Origin: an uncultured Candidatus Saccharibacteria bacterium
GTDB lineage: Bacteria; Patescibacteriota; Minisyncoccia; Sungbacterales; HO2-52-23
Direction: 5' to 3'
NCBI GenBank assembly: GCA_964373875.1
Contig: CAYJWH010000003.1
Span: 1 to 42,894 of the forward strand
DNA length: 42,894 nucleotides
Positions 6,640-36,566 of this stretch are shown in pieces (position 1 is the stretch's first letter; each line of letters opens with the position of its first letter). Under the pieces are notes generated by a model. That model was not told the origin of the DNA, did no database searches, and worked only from the letters and a program-made list of their open reading frames with translations. The translations under genes and the position numbers were made by a program.

Positions 6640-7344
6640 ATGCCAAGCAACTGGACAAAAGGATTTACGAAAGACACGCATCCGTCGATAATGAAAATTT
6701 CCGATACGATGCGAAGGAAGAAGTTAGATAACTTTGCGGAGTGGCGCGATAGAATGCGCGCTCTTGGAAAGATACAAACCGATTATCCGGAATTTAAGAA
6801 AGACGGAGACTTGGCTGAATTGATCGGAGTAATACTGGGAGATGGCCATATTGAAAGGTTCCCAAGGACAGAATCAGTTACTATTTCTTCTAATGCGAAA
6901 AATAAAGGATTTATTAACCGATACAGCAAGCTTTTGGAGACTATATTCAAGAAAAAACCGTATATTGCAAAAATGAGTGGTTCAAATTGCGTGCGTATTA
7001 GAATTTTTCAGAAGAATATAAGTAAAAGGTTTAATATCCCCTCCGGTGCAAGAAGATATAAAAAAATTTCAGTACCCCGCTGGATTTTTAAGGAGGAAGA
7101 GTATATAATAAGATATCTTCGGGGGCTTTATGAAGCAGAAGGCTCGTTTTGTATACATACGCCAACTTCTACCTATAAACTTTTTTTCAGCAATCGAAAT
7201 GAATCTATGCTCCGGAATGTTTTTCGGCTTATGAAACATTTGGGCTTTCATCCACATCAAAGCAAAAGCAATTATTCGATACAGGTTTCTAAACGTGAAG
7301 AGGTATACAATGCGGTTGAATTATTGAAGTTTAGAAATTATTGA
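6640..7344 (+). CDS. Double-motif LAGLIDADG homing endonuclease (free-standing)
   Basis: Motifs LIGVILGDGHI and YLRGLYEAEGSF; visibly more AT-rich than its neighbours. Confidence 0.8.
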   Translation: MPSNWTKGFTKDTHPSIMKISDTMRRKKLDNFAEWRDRMRALGKIQTDYPEFKKDGDLAELIGVILGDGHIERFPRTESVTISSNAKNKGFINRYSKLLETIFKKKPYIAKMSGSNCVRIRIFQKNISKRFNIPSGARRYKKISVPRWIFKEEEYIIRYLRGLYEAEGSFCIHTPTSTYKLFFSNRNESMLRNVFRLMKHLGFHPHQSKSNYSIQVSKREEVYNAVELLKFRNY

Positions 7345-8533: not shown

Positions 8534-8644
8534 GATGATCTCCTTTGGGGTTGAGATAAGTATAGCCATAATGGAACGTAAATATACAGCGGGTGTCAGT
8601 AACATTAATGGCTAAAATGTGGAAATACTTATACAATAAATGTC

Positions 8645-9301
8645 ATGGAATTTTTACTGGGAATGGACTTGGGCTCGTTTATCCGGACTATTGGTCTCGT
8701 AGGTATTTTTGCCGTGGTCTTTGCCGAGTCCGGGGTTCTTATCGGCCTGTTTTTACCCGGGGACTCGCTTCTTTTTACCGCGGGGCTTCTCGCTTCTCAA
8801 GGATTCGTAGATATAAAAATGCTGATGCTTGTAACTTTTTTGGGAGCGGTCTTGGGAGACAGCGTTGGCTACGCTTTTGGCAGGCGAGTAGGGCCAAGAT
8901 TTTTCACCAGAGAGGATTCTTTAATTTTCCGCAAGGAATATATCGTCCGGGCAAACGAGTTTTATGCCAAGCACGGAGGAAAAACAATCATACTTGCCCG
9001 GTTCTTGCCGATCGTCAGAACTCTTGCTCCTATTCTTGCCGGAGTTGGCAGGATGCGCTACGAGACATTTCTTTTATATAATGTTTTCGGCGCAATCCTT
9101 TGGGCGGTTGGCCTAACCGGACTTGGATTCTGGCTCGGAAACATTATTCCCGGCATTGATCGCTATATTATTCCGATAGTCCTTCTTATCATCATATTTT
9201 CCCTTCTTCCCGGATTCTTTCAAGTTTTAAAAAATAAGGAAAACCGCGCGTATATTAAAAATCTTTTTTCGGGTCTCTTTAATCGCTTCCGCTCATTGTA
9301 A
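8645..9301 (+). CDS. DedA family membrane protein
   Basis: VFAESGVLIGLFLPGDSLLFTAG and ARFLPIVRTLAPILAG motifs; multiple TMs. Confidence 0.85.
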   Translation: MEFLLGMDLGSFIRTIGLVGIFAVVFAESGVLIGLFLPGDSLLFTAGLLASQGFVDIKMLMLVTFLGAVLGDSVGYAFGRRVGPRFFTREDSLIFRKEYIVRANEFYAKHGGKTIILARFLPIVRTLAPILAGVGRMRYETFLLYNVFGAILWAVGLTGLGFWLGNIIPGIDRYIIPIVLLIIIFSLLPGFFQVLKNKENRAYIKNLFSGLFNRFRSL

Positions 9302-9330
9302 TTTAATGACCACTATGCTAAAAATTATGC

Positions 9331-9867
9331 ATGTTTAATTTGCCGAAAGTAGGAGAGAGAACGCCAGATTTCTCCCAAGCCACCGCGTATCATAATAGTA
9401 TTTTCAAGAAAGTATCGCTTAGCGACTACCAAAAAAAGTGGCTCGTATTTTTCTTTTACCCTCGTGATTTCACTTTTGTTTGTCCTACTGAAATTGAAGG
9501 GTTCGCGGATTTGGAAAAGGAATTTGAAGAGGCGGGGGCAAAAATACTCGCCTGCTCAACAGACAGCGAGTGGTCTCACAAAAATTGGTTTGAAACTGAC
9601 GAGCGTCTGAAAAAAGTTAAATATCCGGTCATTGCGGACACTACGCACGAAATTTCTAGCGCTTATAATATACTTGGGAAAGATGGAGCGTCCCAACGGG
9701 GAACTTTCATCATTGATCCAGAAGGAATATTACGTTTAATTACTATTTCAGATAATTCAGTAGGCCGTTCCATAAAAGAAACTCTGCGGGTTTTAAAAGC
9801 CCTGCAGACTGGAGAGCTTTGTCCAATAGAATGGGAACCGGGAGAAGCAACTTTGAAAGGGAAGTAA
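9331..9867 (+). CDS. 2-Cys peroxiredoxin (AhpC/Prx1 type)
   Basis: FFFYPRDFTFVCPTE peroxidatic Cys; C-terminal GELCPIEW resolving Cys. Confidence 0.9.
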   Translation: MFNLPKVGERTPDFSQATAYHNSIFKKVSLSDYQKKWLVFFFYPRDFTFVCPTEIEGFADLEKEFEEAGAKILACSTDSEWSHKNWFETDERLKKVKYPVIADTTHEISSAYNILGKDGASQRGTFIIDPEGILRLITISDNSVGRSIKETLRVLKALQTGELCPIEWEPGEATLKGK

Positions 9868-10440: not shown

Positions 10441-11760
10441 ATGCGGGAAGTATATCTTGATCATGCGGCTACGACCTACCTTGATCCGCGAGTAAAGGAG
10501 GCGATGGAGCCGTACTGGGAGATAGAATATGGCAATCCATCGAGTCTTTATCGCTCGGGACGCAGGGCAAAGGACGGACTGGATGAAGCGCGCACAACTA
10601 TTGCGCGGATTTTGAATTGCAAACCGGAAGAAATAATTTTTACCGGCGGAGGTACAGAGGCGATAAATCTTGCTATCTTCGGCGTGGCCCGTTCCTATTC
10701 TAATGTTCTCAAGAACATTAGAATAGGAACGGCGGATGAGCATACGGCGTCTCGGGGCCATCTCATTACTTCCAAAATTGAGCACCACGCCGTACTTCAT
10801 TCAATGGAGGCGCTAAGCAAAGAAGGGTTTGAAGTTACTTACCTAGACGTGGATGAATATGGTTTGGTTGATCCGATAAATCTTCGTCAGGCAATTCGTC
10901 CGGACACGATTTTGGTATCAATAATGTACGCGAATAACGAGATTGGAACTATTGAACCCATTGAGGAAATTGGGAAAATAATTAAAGAAATCCGCGTAGA
11001 AAGAAAAGCCGCGGGCACCAGTACTCCGATATTTTTTCATACCGACGCTTGTCAGGCGGCTGGGTCTTTGGATATGGAAGTAGAAAAACTTGGGGTGGAT
11101 CTGCTTGCCTTCAACGGATCTAAAATTTATGGACCCAAAGGGGTTGGCGCGCTTTATATGCGCCGAGGTGTCAGAGTGAAGCCAATTATATACGGCGGAG
11201 GACAGGAAAATAATCTTCGCTCCGGAACGGAAAATGTCCCCGGGATAGTTGGGTTTGCCAAAGCGTTTGAGCTGGCGCAAAAAGAGCAAGAGAAAGAAAA
11301 TGAACGCCTGACAGAACTACGGGATTATCTTACGGGCCGGCTTCTAAAAGAAATTCCCAAAACGGTTCTCAACGGCCATCCCGTGAGGCGGCTTCCCAAT
11401 AACGTAAATGTTTCTGTCCTAGATATTGAAGGGGAGGGGGTTATTCTTTATTTGGATGCCAAAGGAGTTTATATTTCTACCGGATCGGCTTGCACTTCCA
11501 CCACTCTTGATCCCTCGCATGTGATTCTGGCCATCGGCCAGCCATATGAGTACGCGCACGGCTCTTTGCGCTTTACCTTGGGGAAAAGAACCACCAAAGA
11601 GGACCTCGATTATGTTATGGAAGTTTTCCCCGGAGTAGTGGAGAAATTGCGCAAAATGTCTCCGGTTCGCATGGAGGTCGGACAAAAAGAAGTTTCGCAT
11701 CCGGAAGCATTTGCCGGTCAGGGGTCAAAGATAAAAGTAGGAGGGAAGACGTACAAATAA
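10441..11760 (+). CDS. nifS: Cysteine desulfurase (NifS/IscS class, PLP-dependent) carrying an in-frame palindromic insertion
   Basis: HTDACQAAG, FNGSKIYGPKG (PLP Lys), SGSACTS (active Cys); extra about 15 aa at RSYSNVLKNIRIGT. Confidence 0.9.
   Translation: MREVYLDHAATTYLDPRVKEAMEPYWEIEYGNPSSLYRSGRRAKDGLDEARTTIARILNCKPEEIIFTGGGTEAINLAIFGVARSYSNVLKNIRIGTADEHTASRGHLITSKIEHHAVLHSMEALSKEGFEVTYLDVDEYGLVDPINLRQAIRPDTILVSIMYANNEIGTIEPIEEIGKIIKEIRVERKAAGTSTPIFFHTDACQAAGSLDMEVEKLGVDLLAFNGSKIYGPKGVGALYMRRGVRVKPIIYGGGQENNLRSGTENVPGIVGFAKAFELAQKEQEKENERLTELRDYLTGRLLKEIPKTVLNGHPVRRLPNNVNVSVLDIEGEGVILYLDAKGVYISTGSACTSTTLDPSHVILAIGQPYEYAHGSLRFTLGKRTTKEDLDYVMEVFPGVVEKLRKMSPVRMEVGQKEVSHPEAFAGQGSKIKVGGKTYK
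10689..10732. repeat. 44-bp near-perfect palindrome inside nifS
   Basis: CCGTTCCTATTCTAATGTTCT-ca-AGAACATTAGAATAGGAACGG; 21-bp arms; open in frame. Confidence 0.9.
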
Positions 11761-11770
11761 AGGGCTTTGT

Positions 11771-11806
11771 CTGAAATTTCGAGCGTAGTTCGCGAAGAAA
11801 TTTCAG
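11771..11806 (+). other. Hairpin after nifS (no T-run)
   Basis: CTGAAATTTC-16 nt-GAAATTTCAG. Confidence 0.5.
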
Positions 11807-11819
11807 CTGCCAAACCTTT

Positions 11820-11925
11820 ACCCCGCTCTTACTCTACTACTAAATCGAAAATATAGAGTAAGTGGCAATATCAGATAAACTTCTAAGGTGTATATCATAA
11901 GTCAGCAGTAGAGTAAGGGCGGGGT
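11820..11925. repeat. Family-2 TIR element (106 bp)
   Basis: ACCCCGCTCTTACTCTACTAC ... GCAGTAGAGTAAGGGCGGGGT, about 21-bp inverted termini. Confidence 0.8.
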
Positions 11926-11983
11926 GCTCATAATTTCAGCGAAAAGTTTGTTTGCTGAAGCTCCAAATTTTCGAAAATTATGG

Positions 11984-12008
11984 CAAAAAATACAGGGTTG
12001 ACCCTGTA
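11984..12008 (-). terminator. Intrinsic terminator for CDS 12023-12493
   Basis: Minus strand: TACAGGGT-ca-ACCCTGTA followed by T7. Confidence 0.7.
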
Positions 12009-12794: not shown

Positions 12795-12855
12795 TGAAAG
12801 ATCTCCTATAAGCTTTACAAACTATACAATATAATAATCTAAATAGCAAACTATG

Positions 12856-12955
12856 CCCCGTGCCACAACTAACGTGGATCTGGCATAAACTATAGATTAT
12901 AAGATAAATAACACAATCTAGTAAAAATTTATTTTACGAAGGTTGTGGCACAGGG
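12856..12955. repeat. Family-2-like TIR element (100 bp) ending 1 nt before the nifU ATG
   Basis: CCCCGTGCCACAAC ... GTTGTGGCACAGGG, 14-bp arms with 1 mismatch. Confidence 0.65.
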
Positions 12956-12956
12956 T

Positions 12957-13727
12957 ATGGAGCCAAATCCGAAAATTGATATAAACGCCGATGTCGTGAA
13001 CCAATTCACCCCGCACAAAACTTCAGCGACGGCTGAAGTTTTAGCGGGGCAAGCCGGCGAGAATAATATACAGCCAAAAGTAGATGTCAAAGCGGATGTC
13101 GTCAACCAGTTTACGGGCGAGAAATGGTACTACACGGATATCGTCAAAGAACATTTTTTCAATCCAAGAAATTTGATGCTTGAAGATCCGGACGAGTCGC
13201 AGTATCAGGCCACAGGCATGGTGGGGAGTCCAGCGTGCGGAGATATGATGAAGATGTGGTTGAAAATTGAGCCGGGTACGGAGAAAGTTAAAGAAATGAA
13301 ATGGCGTACGTTCGGCTGTGGTTCCGCAATTGCCGCCACCTCCATGTTTAGCGTAATGGTTACGGAAAATGACGGACTGCCAATCGGGGAAGCATTGAAA
13401 ATCAAGCCACAGCACATTATGGAACGCTTGGGCGGACTGCCGAATCGCAAGATTCACTGTTCCGTCCTCGCCGACAAAGCTTTTCGCAAAGCGGCTAATG
13501 ATTATTTTCGCAGGATGGGCCAAAACGAGCGTATTATGATAGAAGGAGCGCGGGTGATTGACGCGAAACTTAATATAACCGATAAAGATATTGAGGAGGC
13601 GGTACTGGAAGGCGCAATGGATTTGGACGGAGTGCAAAAAAAATTAAAAGTCGGCGTAGGGTCGCCTGAAATTATTACGGAGGTTGAACAACTAATAAGA
13701 TTTTACAAAGAGAAATATTATGGGTAA
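12957..13727 (+). CDS. nifU: NifU/IscU-type Fe-S scaffold with unusual N-terminal extension
   Basis: GSPACGD, FGCGSAIA, HCSVLA cluster-ligand motifs; the track's GTG 12945 start lies inside the repeat, so ATG 12957 is preferred. Confidence 0.85.
   Translation: MEPNPKIDINADVVNQFTPHKTSATAEVLAGQAGENNIQPKVDVKADVVNQFTGEKWYYTDIVKEHFFNPRNLMLEDPDESQYQATGMVGSPACGDMMKMWLKIEPGTEKVKEMKWRTFGCGSAIAATSMFSVMVTENDGLPIGEALKIKPQHIMERLGGLPNRKIHCSVLADKAFRKAANDYFRRMGQNERIMIEGARVIDAKLNITDKDIEEAVLEGAMDLDGVQKKLKVGVGSPEIITEVEQLIRFYKEKYYG
13017..13042 (+). repeat. Perfect hairpin inside the nifU N-terminal extension
   Basis: AAAACTTCAGC-gacg-GCTGAAGTTTT, 11-bp stem; encodes KTSATAEVL. Confidence 0.85.
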
Positions 13728-13919: not shown

Positions 13920-14291
13920 GTGTATACCCTGGATACCAACGCAATAATTTATTACCTGAAGAATGATTCGGCTGTTGTCTTCGCAATACGTAAAATCATG
14001 GCTGGTAGTCCTACAATTTACATCTCGGCTATAACCGAGATCGAACTTTTTAGTTTCTCTGATCTGACCGAATTGGAGAGCGAAGAAATAGAGTTGGTTT
14101 TGCGAACCCTCGCGATTATCCCCCTGGATTCCCGCATCGCGCGCACCGCAGGGTTTCTGCGCAGTAACTATCGGCTCAAGATTGCTGACAGCGCTATTGC
14201 CGCCACCGCTTTATTTACGGGAACGACTTTGGTTACCCGCAATGTTCAAGATTTCAAGAAAGTTCAAGAACTTAAAGTAAGGAAAGTTTAG
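13920..14291 (+). CDS. vapC: PIN-domain toxin VapC
   Basis: LDTNAIIYY (Asp), ITEIE (Glu), IADSAIAATA (Asp), TRNVQDF. Confidence 0.8.
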   Translation: MYTLDTNAIIYYLKNDSAVVFAIRKIMAGSPTIYISAITEIELFSFSDLTELESEEIELVLRTLAIIPLDSRIARTAGFLRSNYRLKIADSAIAATALFTGTTLVTRNVQDFKKVQELKVRKV

Positions 14292-14341: not shown

Positions 14342-14620
14342 ATGGATAGTCAAGGAGCAGCACAGAATCAAGAGAATCAGCCGTCACCAGAGAAAAAGCC
14401 TTTGAAAATAGGGAAAATTGTCGTTGACCGAAATCTTTGTATTGGGGCGGCATCCTGCATTGCCGTAGCGCCCGGTGTTTTTGAGCTTGATTCCGAAAAT
14501 AAAGCGGTAGTATATAATGATAAGGGCGCGGATGACGAGACGATTCTGCTTGCGGCCAAATCCTGCCCTACTCAGGCGATTCTCGTCTTTGATGATGAAG
14601 GTAATCAAATTTTCCCGTAG
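14342..14620 (+). CDS. Small single-cluster ferredoxin
   Basis: DRNLCIGAASCIAVAPGVFELD ... KSCPTQAI. Confidence 0.8.
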   Translation: MDSQGAAQNQENQPSPEKKPLKIGKIVVDRNLCIGAASCIAVAPGVFELDSENKAVVYNDKGADDETILLAAKSCPTQAILVFDDEGNQIFP

Positions 14621-14781
14621 GGCTTTGTCCAAAATTTTGAGAATCAAAATTTTGGTTACAAAACCTACGCCCTGCACTAATTTGAATACGTGCCAACAAA
14701 ATAGATAACCGAGCCGAAGGCGCATCCGCGAGTGTTACAACAATTGAAGAAATACTCCAGCCGAAATTAGTGCGCGGGCTA
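14621..14781 (-). repeat. Family-2 composite element, copy A (TIR core 14668-14781 plus CAAAATTTTG hairpin 14629-14655)
   Basis: Its reverse complement aligns end-to-end with copy B (16048-16221): TAGCCCnCGCACTAATTTCGG ... CGCGGnTnCGCCTTCGGCTCG ... CAAATTAGTGCnGGGC ... GTTTTGTA ... GACAAAGCC. Confidence 0.85.
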
Positions 14782-14819: not shown

Positions 14820-15413
14820 ATGTACGAACCAAAAAATTATGATCATTTGATAGGCACTCCCGGCTTTAGCGACCAGCTCCTTAAAAATCACTTTATCCTA
14901 TATCAGGGATATGTGAAAAATGTGAATACGATTTTACAGGAGCTCGAATCTATGTCCAAAGAAGGAAAAACAGGAACTCCCGCGTATGCCGAACTCCATA
15001 GAAGGTTTGGATGGGAATTTAACGGCATGCGCCTGCATGAATTGTATTTTGGCAACATGAAAAATGGGGGATCAAAACTCGATCCTGCCTCCAAACTGTG
15101 GGCGCAAATGGATAAAGATTTTGGCCCTAAACCTGCTTGGAGGAATGATTTTAAAGCGGTTGGCGCCATGCGCGGCATCGGCTGGGCTGTTTTATACTAT
15201 GATCCTGAAAGCAAAGAACTTTTTAACGTGTGGGTAAACGAGCATGACGTGGGGCATCTTGCCGGCGCCGTGCCATTGCTTGTCCTCGATATTTTTGAGC
15301 ATGCCTACGTTTTGGATTACGGGTTGAAACGCGCTGATTACATCGAGGCCTTTTTTGAAGCGATTGATTGGAGTATCGTGGAAACGAGGCTAAACCTCTA
15401 TAGCGGACTATAG
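14820..15413 (+). CDS. Fe/Mn-family superoxide dismutase; last 7 codons and the stop are supplied by REP sequence
   Basis: DIFEHAYVLDYG...DYIEAFF.AIDW C-terminal signature; NHF and RLHELYF His ligands. Confidence 0.8.
   Translation: MYEPKNYDHLIGTPGFSDQLLKNHFILYQGYVKNVNTILQELESMSKEGKTGTPAYAELHRRFGWEFNGMRLHELYFGNMKNGGSKLDPASKLWAQMDKDFGPKPAWRNDFKAVGAMRGIGWAVLYYDPESKELFNVWVNEHDVGHLAGAVPLLVLDIFEHAYVLDYGLKRADYIEAFFEAIDWSIVETRLNLYSGL
15382..15403 (-). repeat. REP copy (degenerate 5' arm), loop CTAAA
   Basis: aaacGAGG-CTAAA-CCTCTATAG; forms a doublet with 15408-15430. Confidence 0.7.
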
Positions 15414-15430
15414 AGGTTTAGCCTCTATAG
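15408..15430 (+). repeat. REP copy (perfect)
   Basis: CTATAGAGG-TTTAG-CCTCTATAG; contains the SOD stop TAG 15411-15413. Confidence 0.95.
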
Positions 15431-16047: not shown

Positions 16048-16221
16048 TAGCCCACGCACTAATTTCGGTTCGGGTCTTATGTATCTCGAAAATGTCCCGC
16101 GGGTACGCCTTCGGCTCGTAAGATACCACCCGTTGTCTTGTATACAAATTAGTGCGGGGCATAAGTTTTGTAGCTAAATTTTGTTCTTCGCTTGCGACAA
16201 ATCCAAAATTTAGACAAAGCC
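16048..16221 (+). repeat. Family-2 composite element, copy B (TIR core 16048-16160 plus hairpin 16174-16213)
   Basis: Inverted relative to copy A; ends 2 nt before the htrA ATG. Confidence 0.85.
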
Positions 16222-16223
16222 TT

Positions 16224-17800: not shown

Positions 17801-17830
17801 AATAAACAAGGAGAAACTCCTTGTTATTTT
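17801..17830 (+). terminator. Intrinsic terminator
   Basis: AATAAACAAGGAG-aaa-CTCCTTGTTATTTT. Confidence 0.8.
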
Positions 17831-17832
17831 AT

Positions 17833-17939
17833 TAACCCCGCACCTTTCTTTGTGCAGAACTTCCCAAACAAGAAAATCGCTATAAAGGTTAAAGTCAAAA
17901 AATAAGATAAATCTTGCACAAAGAAAGGTGCGGGGTTAA
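17833..17939. repeat. Family-2 TIR element, copy C (107 bp)
   Basis: TTAACCCCGCACCTTTCTTTGTGCA ... TGCACAAAGAAAGGTGCGGGGTTAA, 25-bp arms; interior homologous to copy E. Confidence 0.9.
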
Positions 17940-17984
17940 TTGAATGTTCACTACTTGTGAGGTAAAATATGGGTATAAGACGAC

Positions 17985-18032: not shown

Positions 18033-20789
18033 ATGATGCCCCCCTACAATAATTTCACAATCAAAGCCCAAGAAGTTCTAAAAAAGGCCCATGACTTGGC
18101 CCTCGAGCGTTCGCATCACCAAATTGACGTATTGCACCTGCTGGCATCCCTTGCTCTTCAAGAAGAAGGAACGGTGGACGCTATGCTTGAGAAAGTTGAG
18201 GTGGAAATCTCTGCTCTGATTGATCGTATGCTGGAGATGCTTGATGCTCTGCCAAGGGGAGCTATGATTGCCACTCCCTTGGGCCAAGTTTATTTGACGC
18301 AGGATTTGGCTAAAGTTATTGAGCAGGCGCACAAAGAAGCGGCCCAACTCAAAGACGAATTTATTTCTACCGAGCATTTATTTTTGGCGCTGCTGGAAGT
18401 TCCCTCCAAAGCCAAAGATCTGCTGGAGCGGGAAGGGCTAAATAAAGAGACGGTCCTAAAGGCGCTTGCTGAGCTTCGCGGAGGACAGCGAATCACTGAT
18501 CCGGAACCGGAATCAAAATACAACGTGCTTGAAAAATACGCGCGTAATTTGACGCGCCTGGCCCGCCAGGAGAAACTTGATCCGGTCATCGGCCGGGAAA
18601 AAGAAATCCGTCGGGTAATGCAGGTTTTGTCGCGGCGAACCAAAAACAATCCGGTCCTTATCGGAGAAGCCGGCGTGGGAAAGACGGCGATTGCCGAAGG
18701 ACTTGCCCAGCGCATAATTTCTGGCGACATACCGGAAACTTTGAAAGAAAAAGAACTTATTTCCATTGATCTTGCCGCCATTGTCGCCGGAACTAAATAT
18801 AGAGGAGAGTTTGAAGACCGGCTTAAAGCGATTCTTCGCGAGATTGAACGCGCGCAGGGCAAATATATTATTTTTATAGACGAGCTGCACACTATTGTCG
18901 GCGCGGGAGCGGCCGAGGGAGCAATTGACGCCTCCAATATGTTAAAACCCGCTCTGTCCCGAGGGGAGCTTCACGCCATCGGAGCGACAACCCTCAAAGA
19001 ATATCAGCGGTATATTGAGCGTGATCCTGCCTTGGCCAGGCGTTTTCAGCCGGTATATGTAGAAGAGCCGAGTGTTGAAGACGCGGTATCAATCTTGCGC
19101 GGACTCAAACCAAAATACGAGGCGCATCATGGGGTGCGGATAACCGATTCAGCGCTTCTTGCTTCAGCCAACCTTTCCAGCAGATACATTGCCGACAGAT
19201 TTTTACCGGACAAAGCGGTTGATCTGATGGATGAGGCGGCATCTTCCCTGCGGCTCGAGATAGACAGTTTGCCCAAAGAACTTGACGAAACCCGCCGGAA
19301 AATTATGACGCTTGAAATCGAGCGGGAGGCTTTGAATCCCGTTAGAAGTCAGCCTCGACGTGATGTCGGGCCTGCCGATCCGATTAAATCGGATCGGACT
19401 TCTAATGGGATGAAAAAAGAAACCGATAGAAAATCTAAGGAAAGATCGAAAATCATTGAAAAAGAAATTACTTCGCTTCAAGCGAGTATAAAGGGTCTTG
19501 AGGAAGACTGGAAACTTGAAAAAGACACGATTAGCGAGGTACGGCTTCTTAAAAAAGAGCTTGATACTTTCCGTCAAGAATCCGATATTGCCGAACGTGC
19601 CGGAGAATTCGGCAAAGTTGCCGAGCTTCGTTACGGCCAAGTTCCGCAGGCGGAGCAAAAACTCCGAGAGGCGGAGAAACGCTTGACCCGCTTACAAAAC
19701 TCCCGCCATCTCTTGCGCGGAGAAGTTAGCGAAGAAGACATTGCTGTCGTAGTCGCCCGCTGGACCAATATACCGGTTACCAAGATTTTGGAATCCGAAG
19801 CTTCTCGTCTGATCAAAATGGAAGACGAACTTAAGGGGCGAGTTATCGGCCAAGACGAAGCTATCCAAAAAATTGCCAATGCCGTCAGGCGTTCCCGTGC
19901 CGGAATTTCCGAGGAGAACCGTCCGATTGGATCATTTATTTTTCTTGGACCCACAGGAGTGGGAAAGACTGAGCTTGCCAAAACCCTGGCCGAATTTCTG
20001 TTCAGCGACGAGAAAGCTTTAATCCGTGTCGACATGTCCGAATATATGGAGCGCCACACCGTATCCAAATTTATCGGGTCGCCTCCGGGATATGTCGGGT
20101 ATGAGGAAGGGGGACAGCTGACCGAGCTTATCAAGCACCGGCCTTACTCGGTGGTTCTCTTTGACGAGATTGAAAAAGCGCATCCGGAAGTTTTCAATGT
20201 GCTTTTGCAGATTCTTGATAACGGCCGTCTGACCGATGCCAAGGGGCGCGTGATCAATTTCAAAAACACCATCATCATCATGACTTCAAATATCGGAGGA
20301 GAGTACGCGGCTGAAATGGGGCGGCTTGGATTTGTGTCCGGGGACGAAGATACGCGCGAGTCCAAAGAAGGCGACATGAAAGACAAAATCCGCAAAGCGC
20401 TTGAACGGCATTTCCGACCGGAGTTTTTGAACCGGCTTGATGAGATAATTATTTTCTCCTCGCTCACCCCGGCAACCATTCAGAAAATCGTGGAGATCCA
20501 GCTAGATTTGGTAAAGGAGAGAATGGCCAAAAGAGAAATTGCCGTGGCGTTTACCCCCGATCTTAAAAATTTCATTGCCGAAAAAGGATATGACGCGCAA
20601 TATGGAGCGCGGCCGTTGAAGCGCGCCATTCAAACCCACCTTCTCGACCCCATGGCGCAAAAAATTATCTGCGGAGAAATCAAAAGCGGAGACTCGGTAT
20701 TGGTGGATGTGCGAAATGGAGAGCTGGTGTTTGAGAAAAACGTTAAGCGAGTTGGTACCAGATTGCGGACGGCCGCGTCGGTTAAGTAA
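18033..20789 (+). CDS. clpB: ClpB disaggregase (two AAA+ modules) with a 24-aa insertion in the M-domain
   Basis: GEAGVGKT and GPTGVGKT Walker A motifs, N-domain repeats, coiled-coil middle domain. Confidence 0.95.
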   Translation: MMPPYNNFTIKAQEVLKKAHDLALERSHHQIDVLHLLASLALQEEGTVDAMLEKVEVEISALIDRMLEMLDALPRGAMIATPLGQVYLTQDLAKVIEQAHKEAAQLKDEFISTEHLFLALLEVPSKAKDLLEREGLNKETVLKALAELRGGQRITDPEPESKYNVLEKYARNLTRLARQEKLDPVIGREKEIRRVMQVLSRRTKNNPVLIGEAGVGKTAIAEGLAQRIISGDIPETLKEKELISIDLAAIVAGTKYRGEFEDRLKAILREIERAQGKYIIFIDELHTIVGAGAAEGAIDASNMLKPALSRGELHAIGATTLKEYQRYIERDPALARRFQPVYVEEPSVEDAVSILRGLKPKYEAHHGVRITDSALLASANLSSRYIADRFLPDKAVDLMDEAASSLRLEIDSLPKELDETRRKIMTLEIEREALNPVRSQPRRDVGPADPIKSDRTSNGMKKETDRKSKERSKIIEKEITSLQASIKGLEEDWKLEKDTISEVRLLKKELDTFRQESDIAERAGEFGKVAELRYGQVPQAEQKLREAEKRLTRLQNSRHLLRGEVSEEDIAVVVARWTNIPVTKILESEASRLIKMEDELKGRVIGQDEAIQKIANAVRRSRAGISEENRPIGSFIFLGPTGVGKTELAKTLAEFLFSDEKALIRVDMSEYMERHTVSKFIGSPPGYVGYEEGGQLTELIKHRPYSVVLFDEIEKAHPEVFNVLLQILDNGRLTDAKGRVINFKNTIIIMTSNIGGEYAAEMGRLGFVSGDEDTRESKEGDMKDKIRKALERHFRPEFLNRLDEIIIFSSLTPATIQKIVEIQLDLVKERMAKREIAVAFTPDLKNFIAEKGYDAQYGARPLKRAIQTHLLDPMAQKIICGEIKSGDSVLVDVRNGELVFEKNVKRVGTRLRTAASVK
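19338..19409. repeat. 72-bp TIR palindromic element inserted in frame in clpB
   Basis: CCCGTTAGAAGTC ... GACTTCTAATGGG (12/13 complementary), inner GATCCGAT-taa-ATCGGATC; exactly 24 codons (PVRSQPRRDVGPADPIKSDRTSNG). Confidence 0.85.
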
Positions 20790-21285: not shown

Positions 21286-21458
21286 TTAACCCCGCATTTA
21301 TTTTGCGAATAGTTTGCTTGGCGAAGCGCTTCGCTTTGTAAAATTTGTTCTACTTATCCGCACCATTATTTGCTATTGTCTGGCAAAATAAGTGCGGGGT
21401 TATTTGTTTGTAACTAAATTTTGTTCACCTGCGAGCTCTCAAATTTAGACAAACAAAT
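21286..21458 (+). repeat. Family-2 composite element, copy D (TIR core 21286-21402 plus CTAAATTT hairpin)
   Basis: TTAACCCCGCATTTATTTTGC ... GCAAAATAAGTGCGGGGTTA; right flank TTTGTAACTAAATTTTGTTC...AAATTTAGACAAA matches that of copy B. Confidence 0.8.
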
Positions 21459-26347: not shown

Positions 26348-26370
26348 CTATAGAGGTTTAGCCTCTATAG
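26348..26370 (+). repeat. REP copy (perfect) spanning the RAYT stop codon
   Basis: CTATAGAGG-TTTAG-CCTCTATAG. Confidence 0.95.
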
Positions 26371-27042
26371 TGGATCTATGTATCCAGTGAGGAGGTTGAT
26401 ATCCTTCAAGGCCCATTCTTTGGTAAAGGATTCGTATTGAGATGAGTTGTATAGTTCACCCATCACCTCTTTATTGAGAATTAGCCCATAATTATTTTGC
26501 CCAATATAGTCAGAAAAACTTGACCACGGATAGCTTTTCACAAATTTATAGGACTCGTTCCAGTTTTTTACACCCTTTTCTTTCCAGTTAGGTTCTTTAA
26601 GTTCAAGGGGATTAAGATGAATGTATCGGGTAAGGTGAGTCAGATAGGTTTCTTCATCAATATGAATCGCCTTAAATGTACCTTGGAAGAGGGAACCGCT
26701 ACGTTGATATTTTGTATTGAAATACATAGTGTAGCCGGTACCCAGTTTTTGCATAAATTTTGAAATTCCGTTGTCTACCCTCTGCCGCAGTAATAGGTGA
26801 AAGTGATTAGACATAAGGCAAAAGCTCAAAATATCTACCATCATTTCCCGTTTCCTCTTCTCTATAGAGGCTAAACCTCTATAGTAGAACTGGGAATTTA
26901 GGAGCGGCTGGGTGTCGTTGCATGCATAGAGGAGATAGAGGAATCGTTGGTAGTCGTTCTTCTTGGTAAAAGTTATCCTCTTATCAACCCCGCGATTATA
27001 CACGTGGTAGTATTGCTCATTACTTAATTCAACTTTTCGCAT
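26365..27042 (-). CDS. REP-associated tyrosine transposase (RAYT; IS200-like Y1 HUH enzyme)
   Basis: YHVYNRG, HUH motif NHFHLLL, catalytic Tyr in TRYIHLNP; flanked by REPs; ATG at 27042 preferred over GTG 27051. Confidence 0.85.
   Translation of the reverse strand: MRKVELSNEQYYHVYNRGVDKRITFTKKNDYQRFLYLLYACNDTQPLLNSQFYYRGLASIEKRKREMMVDILSFCLMSNHFHLLLRQRVDNGISKFMQKLGTGYTMYFNTKYQRSGSLFQGTFKAIHIDEETYLTHLTRYIHLNPLELKEPNWKEKGVKNWNESYKFVKSYPWSSFSDYIGQNNYGLILNKEVMGELYNSSQYESFTKEWALKDINLLTGYIDPL
26862..26884 (-). repeat. REP copy (perfect) inside the RAYT coding sequence
   Basis: CTATAGAGG-CTAAA-CCTCTATAG; on the coding strand encodes YYRGLASI. Confidence 0.95.
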
Positions 27043-27050
27043 ACCTACCA

Positions 27051-27073
27051 CTATAGAGGTTTAGCCTCTATAG
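27051..27073 (+). repeat. REP copy (perfect) 8 nt upstream of the RAYT start
   Basis: CTATAGAGG-TTTAG-CCTCTATAG. Confidence 0.95.
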
Positions 27074-27131: not shown

Positions 27132-27929
27132 ATGGACTCGCGAATGCCCAAAGAGATACAAAAAAAGGTATTTGAGTTGACTCTGGCCGTATACCGGGTG
27201 ACTGACTTTTTTCCGCAGGGGGAGGCGCTTCGCCGGCATATCCGAGAAAAAACCAATGATGTTTTTGGCATGTGCTCGGAATATTTTTTTTCTTTTGGGG
27301 ATGAAGAAGGCGTGGTCATGCCTGCCCCGCACTGCGGATACGCCGGTGCGGGAATCCTAGCCAAAATTGAGAGTTTAAAGGGTTATATGAATATCGCGAG
27401 ATCCTTGCGATATGTAAAGCCCATAAACCTTACGATTCTTGAGCGGGAATACGACTACATCGCCAAGTTTTTTTCTCAAGAACTTGGCAAAAGAGATGAC
27501 CTGCATACCCGCCAGAATTTTGCCGAGCAAAACTCAAGCGGGCTAGCCTGGGAAGAATTTTCTAAAAGACAGCGGGAAAATGAGCATGTGTCTGATACAA
27601 AAAGCGATGTGTCCGATAAAAATAATGTGGTGGTAAACCCCGTTAGAAAGAAACACGGGATGCCGTCGGCAGAAACCCGCTTTTCTAAAAAAGAGGAAGT
27701 AGGCGGAGAAAATCAACCGGCGTTTCTTTCTAACGTGGTAAATGAGCGCCAGCAGAAAATTGTTGAATATATACAAGAGACCTCGCAGGCCAAGATTAGC
27801 GACTTCTTTAACTCTTTTGCCGATATAAGTTCAAAAACTATTCAAAGAGATTTACAAGATTTAGTAGCTAAAAATATTCTTAAAAAGGAGGGTGAAAAAC
27901 GGTGGACAATATACTCTCTAGTAAATTAA
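27132..27929 (+). CDS. Four-helix-bundle-like N-terminal domain fused to a C-terminal DeoR-type HTH
   Basis: KKVFELTLAVYRVTDFFP ... ; C-terminal RQQKIVEYIQETSQAKISDF...SSKTIQRDLQDLV. Confidence 0.6.
   Translation: MDSRMPKEIQKKVFELTLAVYRVTDFFPQGEALRRHIREKTNDVFGMCSEYFFSFGDEEGVVMPAPHCGYAGAGILAKIESLKGYMNIARSLRYVKPINLTILEREYDYIAKFFSQELGKRDDLHTRQNFAEQNSSGLAWEEFSKRQRENEHVSDTKSDVSDKNNVVVNPVRKKHGMPSAETRFSKKEEVGGENQPAFLSNVVNERQQKIVEYIQETSQAKISDFFNSFADISSKTIQRDLQDLVAKNILKKEGEKRWTIYSLVN
27325..27352. repeat. Mini family-2 hairpin CCCCGCAC-13 nt-GTGCGGG inside CDS 27132-27929
   Basis: Same terminal octamers as the 100-117-bp elements; encodes part of PAPHCGYAGAG. Confidence 0.6.
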
Positions 27930-28836: not shown

Positions 28837-28845
28837 TTATCCACA
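28837..28845 (+). promoter_or_regulatory. Perfect DnaA-box 9-mer TTATCCACA(CC)
   Basis: Exact match; inverted partner at 28938-28946. Confidence 0.35.
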
Positions 28846-28937: not shown

Positions 28938-28946
28938 TGTGGATAA
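28938..28946 (-). promoter_or_regulatory. Perfect DnaA-box 9-mer (GGTGTGGATAA on the + strand)
   Basis: Exact match. Confidence 0.35.
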
Positions 28947-29315
28947 ATGGGCTTGAAGACGTATTTGGCGACACATATAATAGATGTACAAGCTATGTTT
29001 ATTCTGTCATAAACGGAAAGAAGAAAGCCATTTTTTGGTTGTCTTTAGATATCAGTTCGGATTTATATGCTGATCTGATATCTGGAGGCAAGACAGATAG
29101 AGACCGCACGGAGAGAACTTTGACAACTTAATGACCAAACGTTTAAAAGTTTAAAGTTTAAACGTTTCAAGTTATAAGTTAATTAGAATTTTTCTGGAGA
29201 TTCAAGGTCCGGTCGGTCCGTCGTGCTTCGCACAGAGTTACCGGTTACCGGTAACTAGTTATTCTGCGCGGAGCGCGGTGGAAATGGCTTGACTCCAATT
29301 GAATTGATTATTAGT

Positions 29316-29420
29316 AAACCCCGCCCTTAACTTTGTGCAGCATTTCCCAAACAATAAAGTAGCTATAAAGATTTTGGTATAAAGCTGGTGCAGATATTGC
29401 ACAAGGTTAAGGGCGGGGTA
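29316..29420. repeat. Family-2 TIR element, copy E (105 bp)
   Basis: AACCCCGCCCTTAACTTTGTGCA ... TGCACAAGGTTAAGGGCGGGGT; interior TTCCCAAACAA.AAA...GCTATAAAG shared with copy C. Confidence 0.9.
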
Positions 29421-29631
29421 AATTAAAAACACTCATCTCGTTACACATTGTCGATGGGTAAAAAAGATGAGTGTACCACCGGAGATTCTCCTCACTATCT
29501 ATAAATGGCAGCGAGGAAGAAATAAAAGCAATTTTATTTCAGCCGAGCGAATCATTTATATAAGTCTATTTCATGCTTATATAACCATAGAAAGGGAGGA
29601 TGAGTTTCCTAAGTAAATATAGGAAAAAATT

Positions 29632-35040: not shown

Positions 35041-35063
35041 CTATAGAGGTTTAGCCTCTATAG
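35041..35063 (+). repeat. REP copy (perfect; stem extended to 13 bp by flanks ATCA/TGAT)
   Basis: CTATAGAGG-TTTAG-CCTCTATAG, 3 nt after the TPR gene stop. Confidence 0.95.
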
Positions 35064-35138: not shown

Positions 35139-36566
35139 ATGCTTGTGACTCTTTTTGTTTTTATTTTCGCGCTATTCCCGTTGGCGGTTCTACACGCGGC
35201 TGAAGGAGATATAATTATTACGGAAATCATGTATGATCTTCCGGACGCTGACGGCATGAGAGAGTGGGTCGAAATCTATAACAGCGGAGCGGGGCCGGTA
35301 ACGGTTATCGGCGGATCTGGAAATAATACCTGGCGTTTACACGAGATCCACTCATCGGGACCGCACAACCATACGTTTGGAGCCGAGCCATCACAAGGAA
35401 GCATGACTCTATCCTCCGGGCAGTATGCCGTGATTGCTCAAAACGGAGAAGCATTTTTGGCGGATAATCCAAATTTTAGCAAGACAATTCTTATTTCTTC
35501 AGCTTTTTCTCTTACCAATACCAGCCAGACACTTGGTTTGCGAATTGGTTCATCGGGTACTGTCTGGAGCGGGGTAAATTACGCAAGTGAACTTGGCGCG
35601 CAAGGGGATGGGAAGTCGCTTCAGCTTATTGGTTCACAATGGGTCGCGGCATCTTCAACGCCCGGCGCTTTCAATAGTATTGAGACCACGCCCTCACCAT
35701 CTTCCTCCGAAGAAGGCGTGAGTGCGCCTCCGTCGGCTAGTGGAGCATCCGTAACAACACAATCAAAAATAACAATTGTATTTCCTTCCATCAAGGCCAA
35801 CTCCGGAGGAAACCGGACGGCAGTTGCGGGATCGCTCATTGAGTTCAAAGGTAACGCTTTAGGGCTAAAAGACGATCCGTTGGACAACGCTCGCTTTTGG
35901 TGGAATTTGGGGGATGGCAACTCAATCGAGGGAAGATCAATCTTGCATACTTTTAGAATTCCCGGAACTTACACGGTGGGCCTGCATGTGTCTTCTGGAG
36001 AATATGCCGCTTCGGACTATATAACCGTATCGGTTATTCCAAACCAACTGCGGGTCGCGGATGTTATACTTTTAGAAGACGGATATATCAAACTGGTGAA
36101 CAAAGAGAAAACCGAGATAGACCTTGGCGGATGGATTTTAGAAGATTCTTCCGGAAAGACGTTCACGATTCCCGTGAAAACCAAAATCGGTCCGCAAGCG
36201 GAAATTGCCCTGTTGAATTCGGTAACTTCCCTTTTTAAGTTCGTTGATTCCTCACGCGCGATTATCCGCTATCCAAACGGTAGGGAGGCCGTTAGATGGA
36301 GCGTGGATGCCAAAAGTTTAGTGTCTGACATCGGTACTACTGTTTCTCCGCGGGTTTTGACGGATGACGTCAATGTTAAAGATCGGGTGTCGGACATAGG
36401 GGAAGAAGACCCGGCGGCGGCTCCGGAACTTGTCCCCAAGCTCGGGTCGGAACAAGCCGCAGTGGCTGCCTCCGGAATAAGCTCTAAATTGTTTTTCTTG
36501 CTTGCCGCCGTTTTTAGCGTTCTCGCGTCTGTCGGCTTCTTCCTCGTCAAAAAGAAATATTTCTGA
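35139..36566 (+). CDS. Surface protein: lamin-tail domain, PKD domain, second LTD-like domain, C-terminal TM anchor
   Basis: ITEIMYDLPDADGMREWVEIYN (LTD); WNLGDGNS...GTYTVGLHV (PKD); IDLGGWILEDSSG; C-terminal hydrophobic helix. Confidence 0.75.
   Translation: MLVTLFVFIFALFPLAVLHAAEGDIIITEIMYDLPDADGMREWVEIYNSGAGPVTVIGGSGNNTWRLHEIHSSGPHNHTFGAEPSQGSMTLSSGQYAVIAQNGEAFLADNPNFSKTILISSAFSLTNTSQTLGLRIGSSGTVWSGVNYASELGAQGDGKSLQLIGSQWVAASSTPGAFNSIETTPSPSSSEEGVSAPPSASGASVTTQSKITIVFPSIKANSGGNRTAVAGSLIEFKGNALGLKDDPLDNARFWWNLGDGNSIEGRSILHTFRIPGTYTVGLHVSSGEYAASDYITVSVIPNQLRVADVILLEDGYIKLVNKEKTEIDLGGWILEDSSGKTFTIPVKTKIGPQAEIALLNSVTSLFKFVDSSRAIIRYPNGREAVRWSVDAKSLVSDIGTTVSPRVLTDDVNVKDRVSDIGEEDPAAAPELVPKLGSEQAAVAASGISSKLFFLLAAVFSVLASVGFFLVKKKYF

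What the first reader, a model, noticed from the sequence alone, without database searches (positions are those of the whole stretch)
17833..17939. Family of 100-117-bp elements with CCCCGCAC...GTGCGGGG termini and co-varying 20-25-bp stems
Seven intergenic copies occur at 11820, 12856, 14668, 16048, 17833, 21286 and 29316. Copies C (17833-17939) and E (29316-29420) share an interior block: TTTGTGCAG-nA-TTCCCAAACAA-nAAA...GCTATAAAG. Their long terminal stems differ (CACCTTTCTT/AAGAAAGGTG versus CCCTTAACTT/AAGGTTAAGGG) but stay complementary within each copy. That pattern fits selection on a hairpin (structured RNA or single-strand DNA intermediate) or a MITE/PATE-like mobile element. Copies sit right after terminators and/or just upstream of promoters or start codons (clpB, nifU, htrA, the surface-protein leader). 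I cannot assign them to a known RNA family or IS.
Basis: seen in the sequence. Interest (0 to 1): 0.7.

Follow-up and report, generated by a model that had tools for sequence, protein, structure and literature searches.

The report
Small mobile hairpin DNA elements
The repeats are small hairpin-shaped jumping DNA elements (MITE-like) that litter this reduced-genome groundwater bacterium, duplicate 4 bases where they land, and even sit in frame inside essential genes such as clpB; the kind is known, but this family appears undescribed.

Summary
All seven hairpins are at the stated coordinates, C and E share an interior block, and their stems differ by compensated changes. Only the outermost CCCCG/CGGGG is truly conserved.

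They are best read as non-autonomous mobile elements, not an RNA gene family.
- A syntenic relative (L081, ClpB 89% identical) has none of them. It supplies two exact empty sites, which show 4-bp target duplications (TATG, TGAA).
- Other copies carry TAAA, TTAA or TTTG direct repeats.
- Two more copies lie in frame inside window ORFs (clpB and an HTH gene).
- The same sub-type sits in clpB here and in the sod gene of another genome. One copy is nested inside another.
- The clpB site gains and loses inserts patchily across Sungbacteria.
- A metagenome scan found 22 more loci. One is from a WOR-3-like (non-CPR) bacterium. Their stems extend beyond the searched bases in a copy-specific way.
- Over 31 copies, 93% of stem cells pair, against 70% when shuffled (0 of 500 shuffles as high).
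- Rfam has no match.

CCC termini plus TTAA-type 4-bp duplications resemble piggyBac/IS1380 transposons, but no cognate transposase was found. Verdict: new member of a known kind, moderate interest.

The parts
17836..17935 (+). Copy C. 100-nt core CCCCGCACC...GGTGCGGGG with a perfect 21-bp stem (26 bp counting the flanks). TTAA direct repeats at 17832-17835 and 17936-17939. It sits between a terminator-like hairpin (17805-17825) and the clpB promoter-like site (17940-17968).
   Evidence: (-45.5 kcal/mol, z -10.4). L081 keeps only AGTGCGGGATTAA at the orthologous spot.
29319..29418 (+). Copy E. Same sub-family as C (shared TTTGTGCAG..TTCCCAAACAA..GCTATAAAG). The stem differs from C at 4 positions, all compensated. 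TAAA direct repeats at 29315-29318 and 29419-29422.
   Evidence: The site is empty in L084.
12856..12955 (.). Copy with CCCCGTGCC...GGCACAGGG ends, inserted exactly at the nifU start codon. TATG is duplicated at 12852-12855 and 12956-12959.
   Evidence: The empty site AACTATGGAATC in syntenic L081 has a single TATG. Fold z -5.9.
21290..21399 (.). 110-nt copy CCCCGCATTTATTTTGC...GCAAAATAAGTGCGGGG, flanked by TTAA (left) and TTAT (right).
   Evidence: (-46.1 kcal/mol, z -5.7).
11821..11924 (.). 104-nt copy CCCCGCTCTTACTCTACTACT.../...GGGCGGGG. No flanking direct repeat (TTTA/TGCT). It is embedded between two smaller hairpin modules. The whole ~235-nt block is absent from L081.
   Evidence: L228 has the same right-hand module after a related hairpin upstream of clpB.
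14670..14778 (+). Copy with CCCTGCACTAATTT...AAATTAGTGCGCGGG ends. Its interior core GAGCCGAAGGCG..CCGCG is shared with 16052 (-), L213 and L212.
16052..16159 (-). Reverse-complement relative of the 14670 copy (CCACGCACTAATTT...AAATTAGTGCGGGG), upstream of htrA.
19337..19410 (+). In-frame copy inside clpB (18033-20789). The 74-nt core TCCCGTTAGAAGTC...GACTTCTAATGGGA plus a duplicated TGAA (19333-19336, 19411-19414) makes 78 nt, or 26 codons (NPVRSQPRRDVGPADPIKSDRTSNGM), in the ClpB middle domain.
   Evidence: Insert relative to T. thermophilus ClpB 1qvr. The empty site CCTTGAAAAAAG is in L081. A homologous element is in the sod gene of L082. Fold z -7.8.
27638..27738 (+). In-frame copy inside ORF 27132-27929 (C-terminal DeoR-type HTH). 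Ends are CCCCGTTAGAAAGAAAC...GTTTCTTTCTAACGTGG. TAAA direct repeats at 27634-27637 and 27739-27742. Core plus duplication is 105 nt, or 35 codons.
   Evidence: The L230 homologue carries a different copy.
27325..27353 (+). Probable mini or remnant copy CCCCGCAC-13 nt-GTGCGGGA, in frame in the same ORF.
   Evidence: Assigned by sequence resemblance only.
10689..10732 (.). Perfect 21-bp-arm palindrome CCGTTCCTATTCTAATGTTCT..AGAACATTAGAATAGGAACGG. It encodes most of a 15-aa in-frame insert in NifS that is absent from L081. Possible stem-only relative of the family.
   Evidence: Membership is uncertain.
11762..11819 (+). Accessory ~50-60-nt module (GGGCTTTGTC, small hairpin, CAAACCTTT) that abuts the large hairpin. 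Equivalent modules are at 14620-14667 (+) and 16161-16222 (-).
   Evidence: Not present next to metagenome members of the same sub-family (L212, L213).

Best explanation
These are non-autonomous, MITE-like foldback transposable elements. The core is 60-130 nt (74-110 nt in the window). It is bounded by CCCCG...CGGGG at the foot of a 13-26-bp stem, and its loop sequence is free to vary.

Shown:
- They insert with a 4-bp target duplication (TTAA most often; also TAAA, TATG, TGAA, TTTG).
- They are present or absent between close relatives.
- They occur in intergenic DNA, often exactly at a stop or start codon.
- They occur in frame inside ORFs when core plus duplication is a multiple of 3 and free of stop codons.
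- They insert into one another.
- They are found in distant phyla (CPR and WOR-3).
- Their two arms co-vary.

Inferred:
- They are moved in trans by a cut-and-paste DDE-type transposase that makes 4-bp staggered cuts. The most likely type is the IS1380/piggyBac kind (CCC termini, TTAA-type duplications, possibly seamless excision). I put the probability of this specific assignment at about 0.4-0.5.
- The arms stay complementary because only copies whose ends can pair, or are recognised as a matched pair, keep transposing. The covariation therefore reflects selection on the element, not on a host RNA.
- Any effects on neighbouring genes (5' UTR of nifU, spacing of the clpB and htrA promoters, extra loop in ClpB) are by-products.
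For: Empty sites and target duplications:
- In syntenic L081 the 12856 copy and the clpB copy are missing, and a single TATG / TGAA is present.
- Perfect non-palindromic 4-bp direct repeats flank E, the 27638 copy, two copies in L230 and one in L084.
- TTAA flanks C and most metagenome copies.

Polymorphism:
- L081 (11.8 kb, same gene order) has no such hairpin.
- The E site is empty in L084, and the L084 site is empty in the window.

Mobility:
- The clpB insert here (NPVRSQPRRDVG..RTSNG) and the sod insert in L082 (RPVRSQPRRDVG..RTSNG) are the same element.
- In L228 the clpB copy carries a nested 29-nt copy.
- About 35 of 120 ClpB homologues have variable inserts at this one site, and sister sequences differ in presence.

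Spread:
- 22 metagenome loci matched. 16 of 20 distinct hits extend the stem by 3-8 unspecified, copy-specific pairs.
- L222 is WOR-3-like. L053 is a CPR MAG.
- Flanking genes are unrelated housekeeping genes.

Covariation: 93.1% of cells paired against 70.1% shuffled; 99 against 32 double-change cells; 0 of 500 shuffles as high.

No Rfam family matches.

piggyBac hallmarks (TTAA, with rare TAAA/TATG/TCAA variants; conserved 5' CCC; otherwise divergent TIRs; IS1380 as the prokaryotic relative) are taken from PMC10813416 and PMC5718144.
Against: - No transposase with matching ends was found in the window or in any fetched locus.
- Three window copies (11821, 14670, 16052) and L053 lack a clean 4-bp direct repeat.
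- Several different stems coexist in one small genome. That is unusual if one transposase reads a long TIR.
- Copies within the window are diverged (C and E share only a patchy interior block), so recent activity in this genome is not shown.
- Part of the covariation set was chosen for having stems. The unbiased subset is smaller.
- A peptide search for more in-frame hosts found nothing.
Confidence: 0.8

Rival explanations
1. REPIN/PATE-like hairpins moved as single-stranded DNA by a Y1 (HUH) transposase of the IS200/RAYT type, such as the one encoded at 26365-27051.
For: A Y1_Tnp / REP-associated tyrosine transposase-like ORF is in the window. REPINs also show arm-to-arm compensation. Only the foot of the hairpin is conserved, as expected for structure-reading enzymes.
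Against: IS200/IS605 and RAYT mobilisation makes no target duplication (established knowledge), whereas 4-bp duplications with empty sites are seen here. The Y1 gene is flanked by its own, unrelated and nearly invariant 22-nt REP, TATAGAGGYTWARCCTCTATAG, present in 8 copies. Its NCBIfam score is below cut-off (42.5 against 80). The elements carry no GTAG/CGTC tag.
Confidence: 0.08
2. A family of structured RNAs (cis-regulatory leaders or small RNAs) kept by the host, for example to control stress genes (clpB, htrA, sod, nifU).
For: Strong predicted folds. Stems covary. Positions lie next to promoters and start codons of stress genes. One sub-family has a conserved interior core, GAGCCG..GGCG..CCGCG, across metagenomes.
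Against: - Interiors are unalignable between sub-families.
- Sister copies occur in both orientations (14670 + and 16052 -).
- Some copies lie inside coding sequence.
- The same genes in L081 and L082 lack them.
- Flanking genes elsewhere are unrelated.
- Both strands fold about equally well.
- Rfam has no match.
Confidence: 0.06
3. Mobile in origin but now domesticated: the hairpins serve the host as transcript-end or mRNA-stability signals or RNase III sites, as reported for Correia/ERIC elements.
For: Many copies start exactly at a stop codon or follow a terminator. This class of effect is documented for other MITEs (PMC10969869).
Against: No U-tract follows the stems. Real terminator-like hairpins already precede C. 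Relatives do without them. Nothing here measures RNA.
Confidence: 0.05
4. Integron attC-like recombination sites that delimit gene cassettes.
For: Imperfect palindromes of similar size lie between genes, and their sequences vary while the structure is kept.
Against: There is no integrase. There are no RYYYAAC/GTTRRRY core sites. The genes between copies are conserved syntenic housekeeping genes. Some copies lie inside ORFs, and target duplications are present.
Confidence: 0.01

Closest known systems
Rickettsia palindromic elements (RPEs)
   Same: Palindromic repeats of roughly 100-150 bp in a reduced genome. They insert both between genes and in frame inside unrelated housekeeping genes, adding a peptide loop (PMC10969869). 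Here that applies to clpB, sod, an HTH gene and probably nifS.
   Different: The host phyla differ (CPR, WOR-3). The ends are CCCCG. A clear 4-bp target duplication is seen. Only 5-9 terminal bases are conserved. No sequence similarity to RPEs was tested or expected.
Correia / ERIC-type bacterial MITEs
   Same: Short, non-coding, bounded by terminal inverted repeats. They form long hairpins, carry target duplications, sit beside promoters and gene ends, and differ in position between strains (PMC10969869).
   Different: Correia and ERIC duplicate TA (my own knowledge), and their TIRs are conserved among copies. Here the duplication is 4 bp, and the sub-terminal arm sequence differs from copy to copy while staying complementary.
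piggyBac superfamily / IS1380 family and their MITEs
   Same: TTAA 4-bp duplication with rare TAAA/TATG/TCAA variants. TIRs begin with CCC and are otherwise divergent between elements but matched within an element (PMC10813416). IS1380 is the prokaryotic relative (PMC5718144). The TIR of one sub-type here (CCCCGTTAGAAAG) resembles piggyBac CCCTAGAAAG; this last point is recalled from memory and is only a lead.
   Different: No transposase of this superfamily was found near any copy. The IS1380 end and target rules were not checked against ISfinder. The arms here are far longer than needed for a 13-15-bp TIR in several copies.
REPINs (REP doublets mobilised by RAYTs)
   Same: Hairpins of about 100 nt whose arms show compensatory change. 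A RAYT-like gene is present in the window.
   Different: REPINs have no target duplication and are near-identical within a genome. Here duplications are present and copies are diverse. The window's RAYT-like gene has a separate REP.

Membership tests
MITE (miniature inverted-repeat transposable element) | Short (under about 500 bp), with no coding capacity of its own | tested here: met
   Cores are 61-128 nt. The intergenic copies are too short to encode a transposase, and their loop sequences are unrelated between sub-families.
MITE (miniature inverted-repeat transposable element) | Terminal inverted repeats | tested here: met
   13-26-bp arms. 93.1% of cells paired over 14 positions in 31 copies.
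MITE (miniature inverted-repeat transposable element) | Target-site duplication, with empty sites in relatives | tested here: met
   TATG and TGAA are confirmed by empty sites in L081. TAAA (four copies), TTTG and TTAA direct repeats are seen elsewhere. Three window copies and L053 lack one.
MITE (miniature inverted-repeat transposable element) | Multiple dispersed copies and insertion polymorphism | tested here: met
   9-11 copies in 43 kb. None in syntenic L081. 22 metagenome loci. The clpB hot spot is patchy.
MITE (miniature inverted-repeat transposable element) | A cognate autonomous element with the same ends | tested here: not met
   No transposase-bearing element with CCCCG ends was found in the window or any fetched locus. 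Whole genomes could not be searched.
IS1380 / piggyBac-type element | 4-bp duplication, TTAA preferred | tested here: met
   TTAA dominates. Variants are TAAA, TATG, TGAA and TTTG. The criterion is taken from PMC10813416.
IS1380 / piggyBac-type element | Ends begin with CC(C); the rest of the TIR is divergent | tested here: met
   CCCCG is invariant at positions 1-5. Positions 6-14 show up to four pair types.
IS1380 / piggyBac-type element | Mobilised by a DDE/DDD transposase of that superfamily | not testable with these tools
   None was seen in about 43 kb plus the fetched loci.
IS1380 / piggyBac-type element | Seamless excision that restores the target | tested here: inconclusive
   Sister ClpB genes with and without the insert keep an intact frame and a single TGAA. 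This fits precise loss, but equally fits never having been inserted.
REP/REPIN-RAYT system | No target duplication; a conserved tag (GTAG/CGTC) beside a short palindrome; the RAYT gene flanked by the same repeats | tested here: not met
   Duplications are present. No such tag is seen at the CCCCG ends read. The RAYT-like ORF is flanked by a different 22-nt REP.
Rfam structured-RNA family | Match to a curated covariance model at its gathering score | tested here: not met
   Only two tRNAs pass. In E-value mode only microRNA-precursor models hit, at 26-40 bits against cut-offs of 100-211.
Rickettsia palindromic elements | In-frame insertion into unrelated protein genes | tested here: met
   Seen in clpB (window, L228, L084), sod (L082) and the HTH ORF (window, L230). 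Every one has core plus duplication divisible by 3.
Rickettsia palindromic elements | Sequence homology to RPE families / Rickettsiales host | not tested
   The host is a Sungbacteria-like CPR bacterium. No RPE sequences were compared.

The most novel reading that the evidence does not exclude
A prokaryotic piggyBac-like transposition system (TTAA-type target, CCC ends, seamless excision) is active across very distant uncultivated phyla (CPR and WOR-3). Alternatively, an unknown structure-reading enzyme recognises only the CCCCG foot of a hairpin. Either way, its miniature derivatives repeatedly add and remove peptide loops at a fixed site of the essential chaperone ClpB, and in other core enzymes, in bacteria with minimal genomes.
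Probability: 0.25. Interest if true: 0.75.

Novelty: new member of a known kind. Interest (0 to 1): 0.55.

Why it matters
CPR bacteria have very small genomes and are usually described as poor in mobile DNA. Here one 43-kb stretch carries about ten copies of a single hairpin element plus a separate REP/RAYT system.

- The family is shared with an unrelated phylum, which suggests horizontal spread of whatever enzyme moves it.
- The in-frame copies show that transposon insertion, and probably precise loss, is a live source of protein-length variation in essential genes of these organisms. About 30% of Sungbacteria-like ClpB sequences carry a variable insert at one codon.
- For annotation, these elements explain odd over-long ORFs and long intergenic hairpins that could be mistaken for RNA genes, terminators or introns.
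- If the piggyBac/IS1380 link holds, the family offers a compact bacterial model for TTAA-type transposition.

Tried and rejected
- **Rfam, both modes.** No family matched. The microRNA-precursor hits are far below their cut-offs and only reflect a long hairpin.
- **Viral-contig scans.** The in-frame sub-type is absent. The loose pattern gave mostly chance hits, plus an unrelated conserved 115-nt phage hairpin.
- **Peptide search with the two in-frame inserts joined.** The third found no candidates, so the range of host proteins could not be widened this way.
- **Exact-protein lookup of the window's ClpB.** Not on record, so the rest of the source genome could not be reached.
- **Search for a full-length element (pairs of CCCCGC[AC]C ends 150-4000 bp apart) and Pfam on neighbouring ORFs.** No transposase was found.
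- **The Y1/RAYT gene as mobiliser.** Rejected because of the target duplications and its own distinct REP.
- **attC sites, plain terminators and chance palindromes.** Considered and rejected.
- **G-T against A-C mismatch bias.** Tallied by eye from the stems (4 against 2 on the gene-sense strand). Too few to say anything about RNA-level selection.
- **A covariance model.** Not built. Interiors are unalignable, so a hairpin scan and a direct pair count on the arms were used instead.

Full report
**Host and setting.** The window (45% GC) comes from a Candidate Phyla Radiation bacterium close to Candidatus Sungbacteria. Its ClpB is 77-80% identical to proteins named Sungbacteria. The best species-representative genomes reach only 66%. 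The region 9.3-20.8 kb is a stress and Fe-S cluster block: AhpC, NifS, NifU, a PIN protein, ferredoxin, SOD, HtrA and ClpB. Rfam at gathering thresholds finds only two tRNAs.

**The observation.**
- All seven reported hairpins are present.
- They fold far better than shuffled sequence, with z from -3.1 to -10.4. They fold about equally well on the other strand.
- CCCCGCAC occurs 6 times against 0.91 expected.
- Under a strict filter, long-stem hairpins number 6 against 0.98 in shuffles.
Their arms differ at four positions, each compensated on the other arm.
- The description needs trimming. Only CCCCG...CGGGG is invariant, stems are 13-26 bp, and 14668 and 16048 are reverse complements of each other.

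**More copies inside genes.**
- A 76-nt hairpin at 19336-19411 lies inside clpB. Aligned to T. thermophilus ClpB, it is a clean insertion in the middle domain.
- A 101-nt copy at 27638-27738 lies in frame in ORF 27132-27929.
- Both read AAY CCC GTT AGA (N-P-V-R) at their left end.
- A 29-nt CCCCGCAC...GTGCGGGA mini-hairpin lies in the same ORF.
- A perfect 44-nt palindrome encodes most of a 15-residue insert in NifS. These two look like reduced relatives.

**Empty sites and target duplications.** Contig L081 (ClpB 89% identical) has the same gene order from nifS to clpB and no such hairpin at all. Two junctions are exact.
- At nifU the window reads AACTATG[CCCCG...CAGGG]TATGGAG. L081 reads AACTATGGAATC.
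- In clpB the window reads TTTGAA[TCCCG...TGGGA]TGAAAAAAG. L081 reads CCTTGAAAAAAG.

Each shows a 4-bp duplication, TATG and TGAA. The clpB insertion is 74 + 4 = 78 nt, or 26 codons.

Perfect 4-bp direct repeats also flank other copies:
- E (TAAA), the 27638 copy (TAAA) and C (TTAA);
- two copies in L230 (TAAA);
- one copy in L084 (TTTG).

Seven of these repeats are non-palindromic, so they are direct repeats and not stem extensions.

Copies 11821, 14670 and 16052 lack such repeats. They are embedded in composite blocks with smaller hairpin modules. At the C site, L081 retains only AGTGCGGGATTAA in front of the conserved clpB promoter-like site. That is a remnant of the right end.

**Evidence of movement.**
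- In L082 (ClpB 86% identical) clpB is uninterrupted. Its sod gene, however, carries CCCCGTTAGAAGTCAGCCCCGACG..., encoding RPVRSQPRRDVG...GRTSNGV. This is the same element as the window's clpB insert, NPVRSQPRRDVG...RTSNGM.
- In L228 the clpB site holds a 98-nt core that contains a nested 29-nt copy. In L084 the same site holds a decayed homologue.
- About 35 of 120 close ClpB homologues have inserts of 8-49 residues at this one position.
- On a tree built with the insert masked, at least seven sister pairs differ in presence. The site therefore sees recurrent insertion, precise loss, or both.
- In the intergenic region upstream of the 1172-residue peptidoglycan-binding gene, the window and L084 each carry one copy at different positions. 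Each site is empty in the other.
- Every in-ORF copy has core plus duplication divisible by three: 78, 78, 102, 105 and 99 nt.

**Distribution.**
- A metagenome scan for TTAACCCCGCA-N70-100-TGCGGGGTTA returned 22 loci of 31-55% GC from groundwater, sediment and wastewater.
- Of 20 distinct hits, 16 extend the stem by 3-8 further perfect pairs that were not specified and differ from hit to hit. About 0.3 would be expected by chance, which is my estimate.
- The CCCCGCACC and CCCCGTTAGA sub-types co-occur on the same contigs (L207, L222, L227, L230 and the window).
- L222 carries at least five copies in 14 kb. Its pyruvate phosphate dikinase and T9SS-type sorting domains place it with candidate division WOR-3.
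- L053 is a different CPR genome.
- Neighbouring genes are unrelated housekeeping genes. Several copies start exactly at a TAA stop that lies inside the TTAA/TAAA repeat.

**Covariation.** Arms of 31 copies were aligned in register from the ends.
- 93.1% of cells form standard pairs, against 70.1% when partners are shuffled.
- There are 99 double-change cells against 32.
- The covariation score is 0.577 against 0.158. No shuffle out of 500 reached it, and all slid registers collapse to 40-53% paired.
- Positions 1-5 never vary. Positions 6-14 show up to four Watson-Crick pair types.
- Part of this set was chosen for having a stem. The pattern-selected subset is the unbiased control.
- Interiors are unalignable except within sub-families: C/E, and 14670/16052/L213/L212, which share a GAGCCG..GGCG..CCGCG core.

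**Interpretation.** Four features define a MITE-like element: short size, inverted ends, target duplications with empty sites, and dispersed polymorphic copies. All four are met.

A host RNA family is unlikely. Interiors differ, both orientations occur, some copies are coding, relatives lack them, and no Rfam model matches.

The only transposase-like gene in the window is a Y1/RAYT-like ORF. It is flanked by its own nearly invariant 22-nt REP, present in 8 copies. HUH enzymes also leave no duplication, so it is probably not the mobiliser.

The combination of CCC ends, TTAA-dominated 4-bp duplications with TAAA/TATG-type variants, and TIRs matched within an element but divergent between elements is the published signature of piggyBac. 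Its prokaryotic relatives are the IS1380 family. This is a lead, not a membership. No cognate transposase was found in any sequence I could reach.

The compensated arms are most simply explained by selection at the level of the element. C and E have diverged heavily in their loops, yet have 0 and 1 mismatched stem pairs. That fits descent through transposition-competent masters rather than decay in place. Why pairing beyond the first ~9 bases should matter remains unexplained.

**Literature.** Full-text searches found no description of MITEs or palindromic elements in CPR/Patescibacteria. The nearest described parallels are Rickettsia palindromic elements, for the in-frame habit, and Correia/ERIC-type MITEs.

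**Verdict.** This is a real and apparently undescribed family of a known kind of element. It is interesting for three reasons: its density in a minimal genome, its cross-phylum spread, and its in-frame turnover in essential genes.

Noticed in passing
window 26365-27051 (-) with repeats at 15386-15430, 26348-26370, 26862-26884, 27051-27073, 35041-35063, 36802-36824, 37652-37674: A second, unrelated repeat system. It is a nearly invariant 22-nt palindrome, TATAGAGGYTWARCCTCTATAG, in 8 copies. Copies flank both sides of a Y1 / REP-associated tyrosine transposase-like ORF and one lies inside it. Two copies lie inside the glycosyltransferase ORF 36566-38758. This looks like a REP/RAYT system in a CPR genome.
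   Followed up: partly
window 18033-20789 (clpB), residues 435-460; homologues P0001-P0120: About 30% of Sungbacteria-like ClpB proteins carry a variable 8-49-residue insert at one codon of the middle domain. Presence differs between sister sequences, so this is an insertion / precise-loss hot spot.
   Followed up: partly
window 28837-28845 and 28938-28946; also L084 about 8560-8720: Two perfect DnaA-box sequences (TTATCCACA / TGTGGATAA) in inverted orientation lie in a long intergenic region conserved between the window and L084. This may be a replication origin or a DnaA-controlled promoter. GC skew was not examined.
   Followed up: no
window 29236-29256; L084 about 2555-2590 and 9300-9370: Runs of GTAACCR / GTTACCGGTAAC-type short repeats lie upstream of the large peptidoglycan-binding gene, and in L084 also upstream of clpB. 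They may be an operator for a shared regulator.
   Followed up: no
L160:1812-1927 and about 45 other IMG/VR contigs (e.g. L104, L136): A conserved ~115-nt Y-shaped hairpin, AACCCCGCAAGATGCTCTGTGGTCTTGGC...CAAGACCACACAGTACCCTGCGGGGTT, occurs in a group of viral contigs. It folds at -54 to -62 kcal/mol (z about -7) and has no Rfam match. It shares the AACCCCGCA ends, but it looks like a single conserved locus rather than a dispersed repeat.
   Followed up: partly
window 10689-10732 in nifS (10441-11760): A perfect 21-bp-arm palindrome encodes most of a 15-residue in-frame insert that is absent from the L081 orthologue. A second 9-residue insert lies further on (residues 186-194).
   Followed up: partly
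window 13920-14291; L081 8014-8965; window 6640-7344: Other lineage-specific insertions in the same syntenic block. A PIN-domain gene lies between nifU and ferredoxin (window only). An HNH endonuclease cassette lies between htrA and clpB (L081 only). A LAGLIDADG-domain ORF lies next to tRNA-Gln.
   Followed up: no
window 11926-11990 and L228 about 2125-2185: A ~60-nt module, TCATAATTTCAGCGAAAA..GCTGAAGCTC.AAATTTTCG.AAATTATG, follows a large hairpin both after nifS in the window and upstream of clpB in L228. The hairpins therefore also travel, or accumulate, as composite blocks with smaller palindromes.
   Followed up: partly
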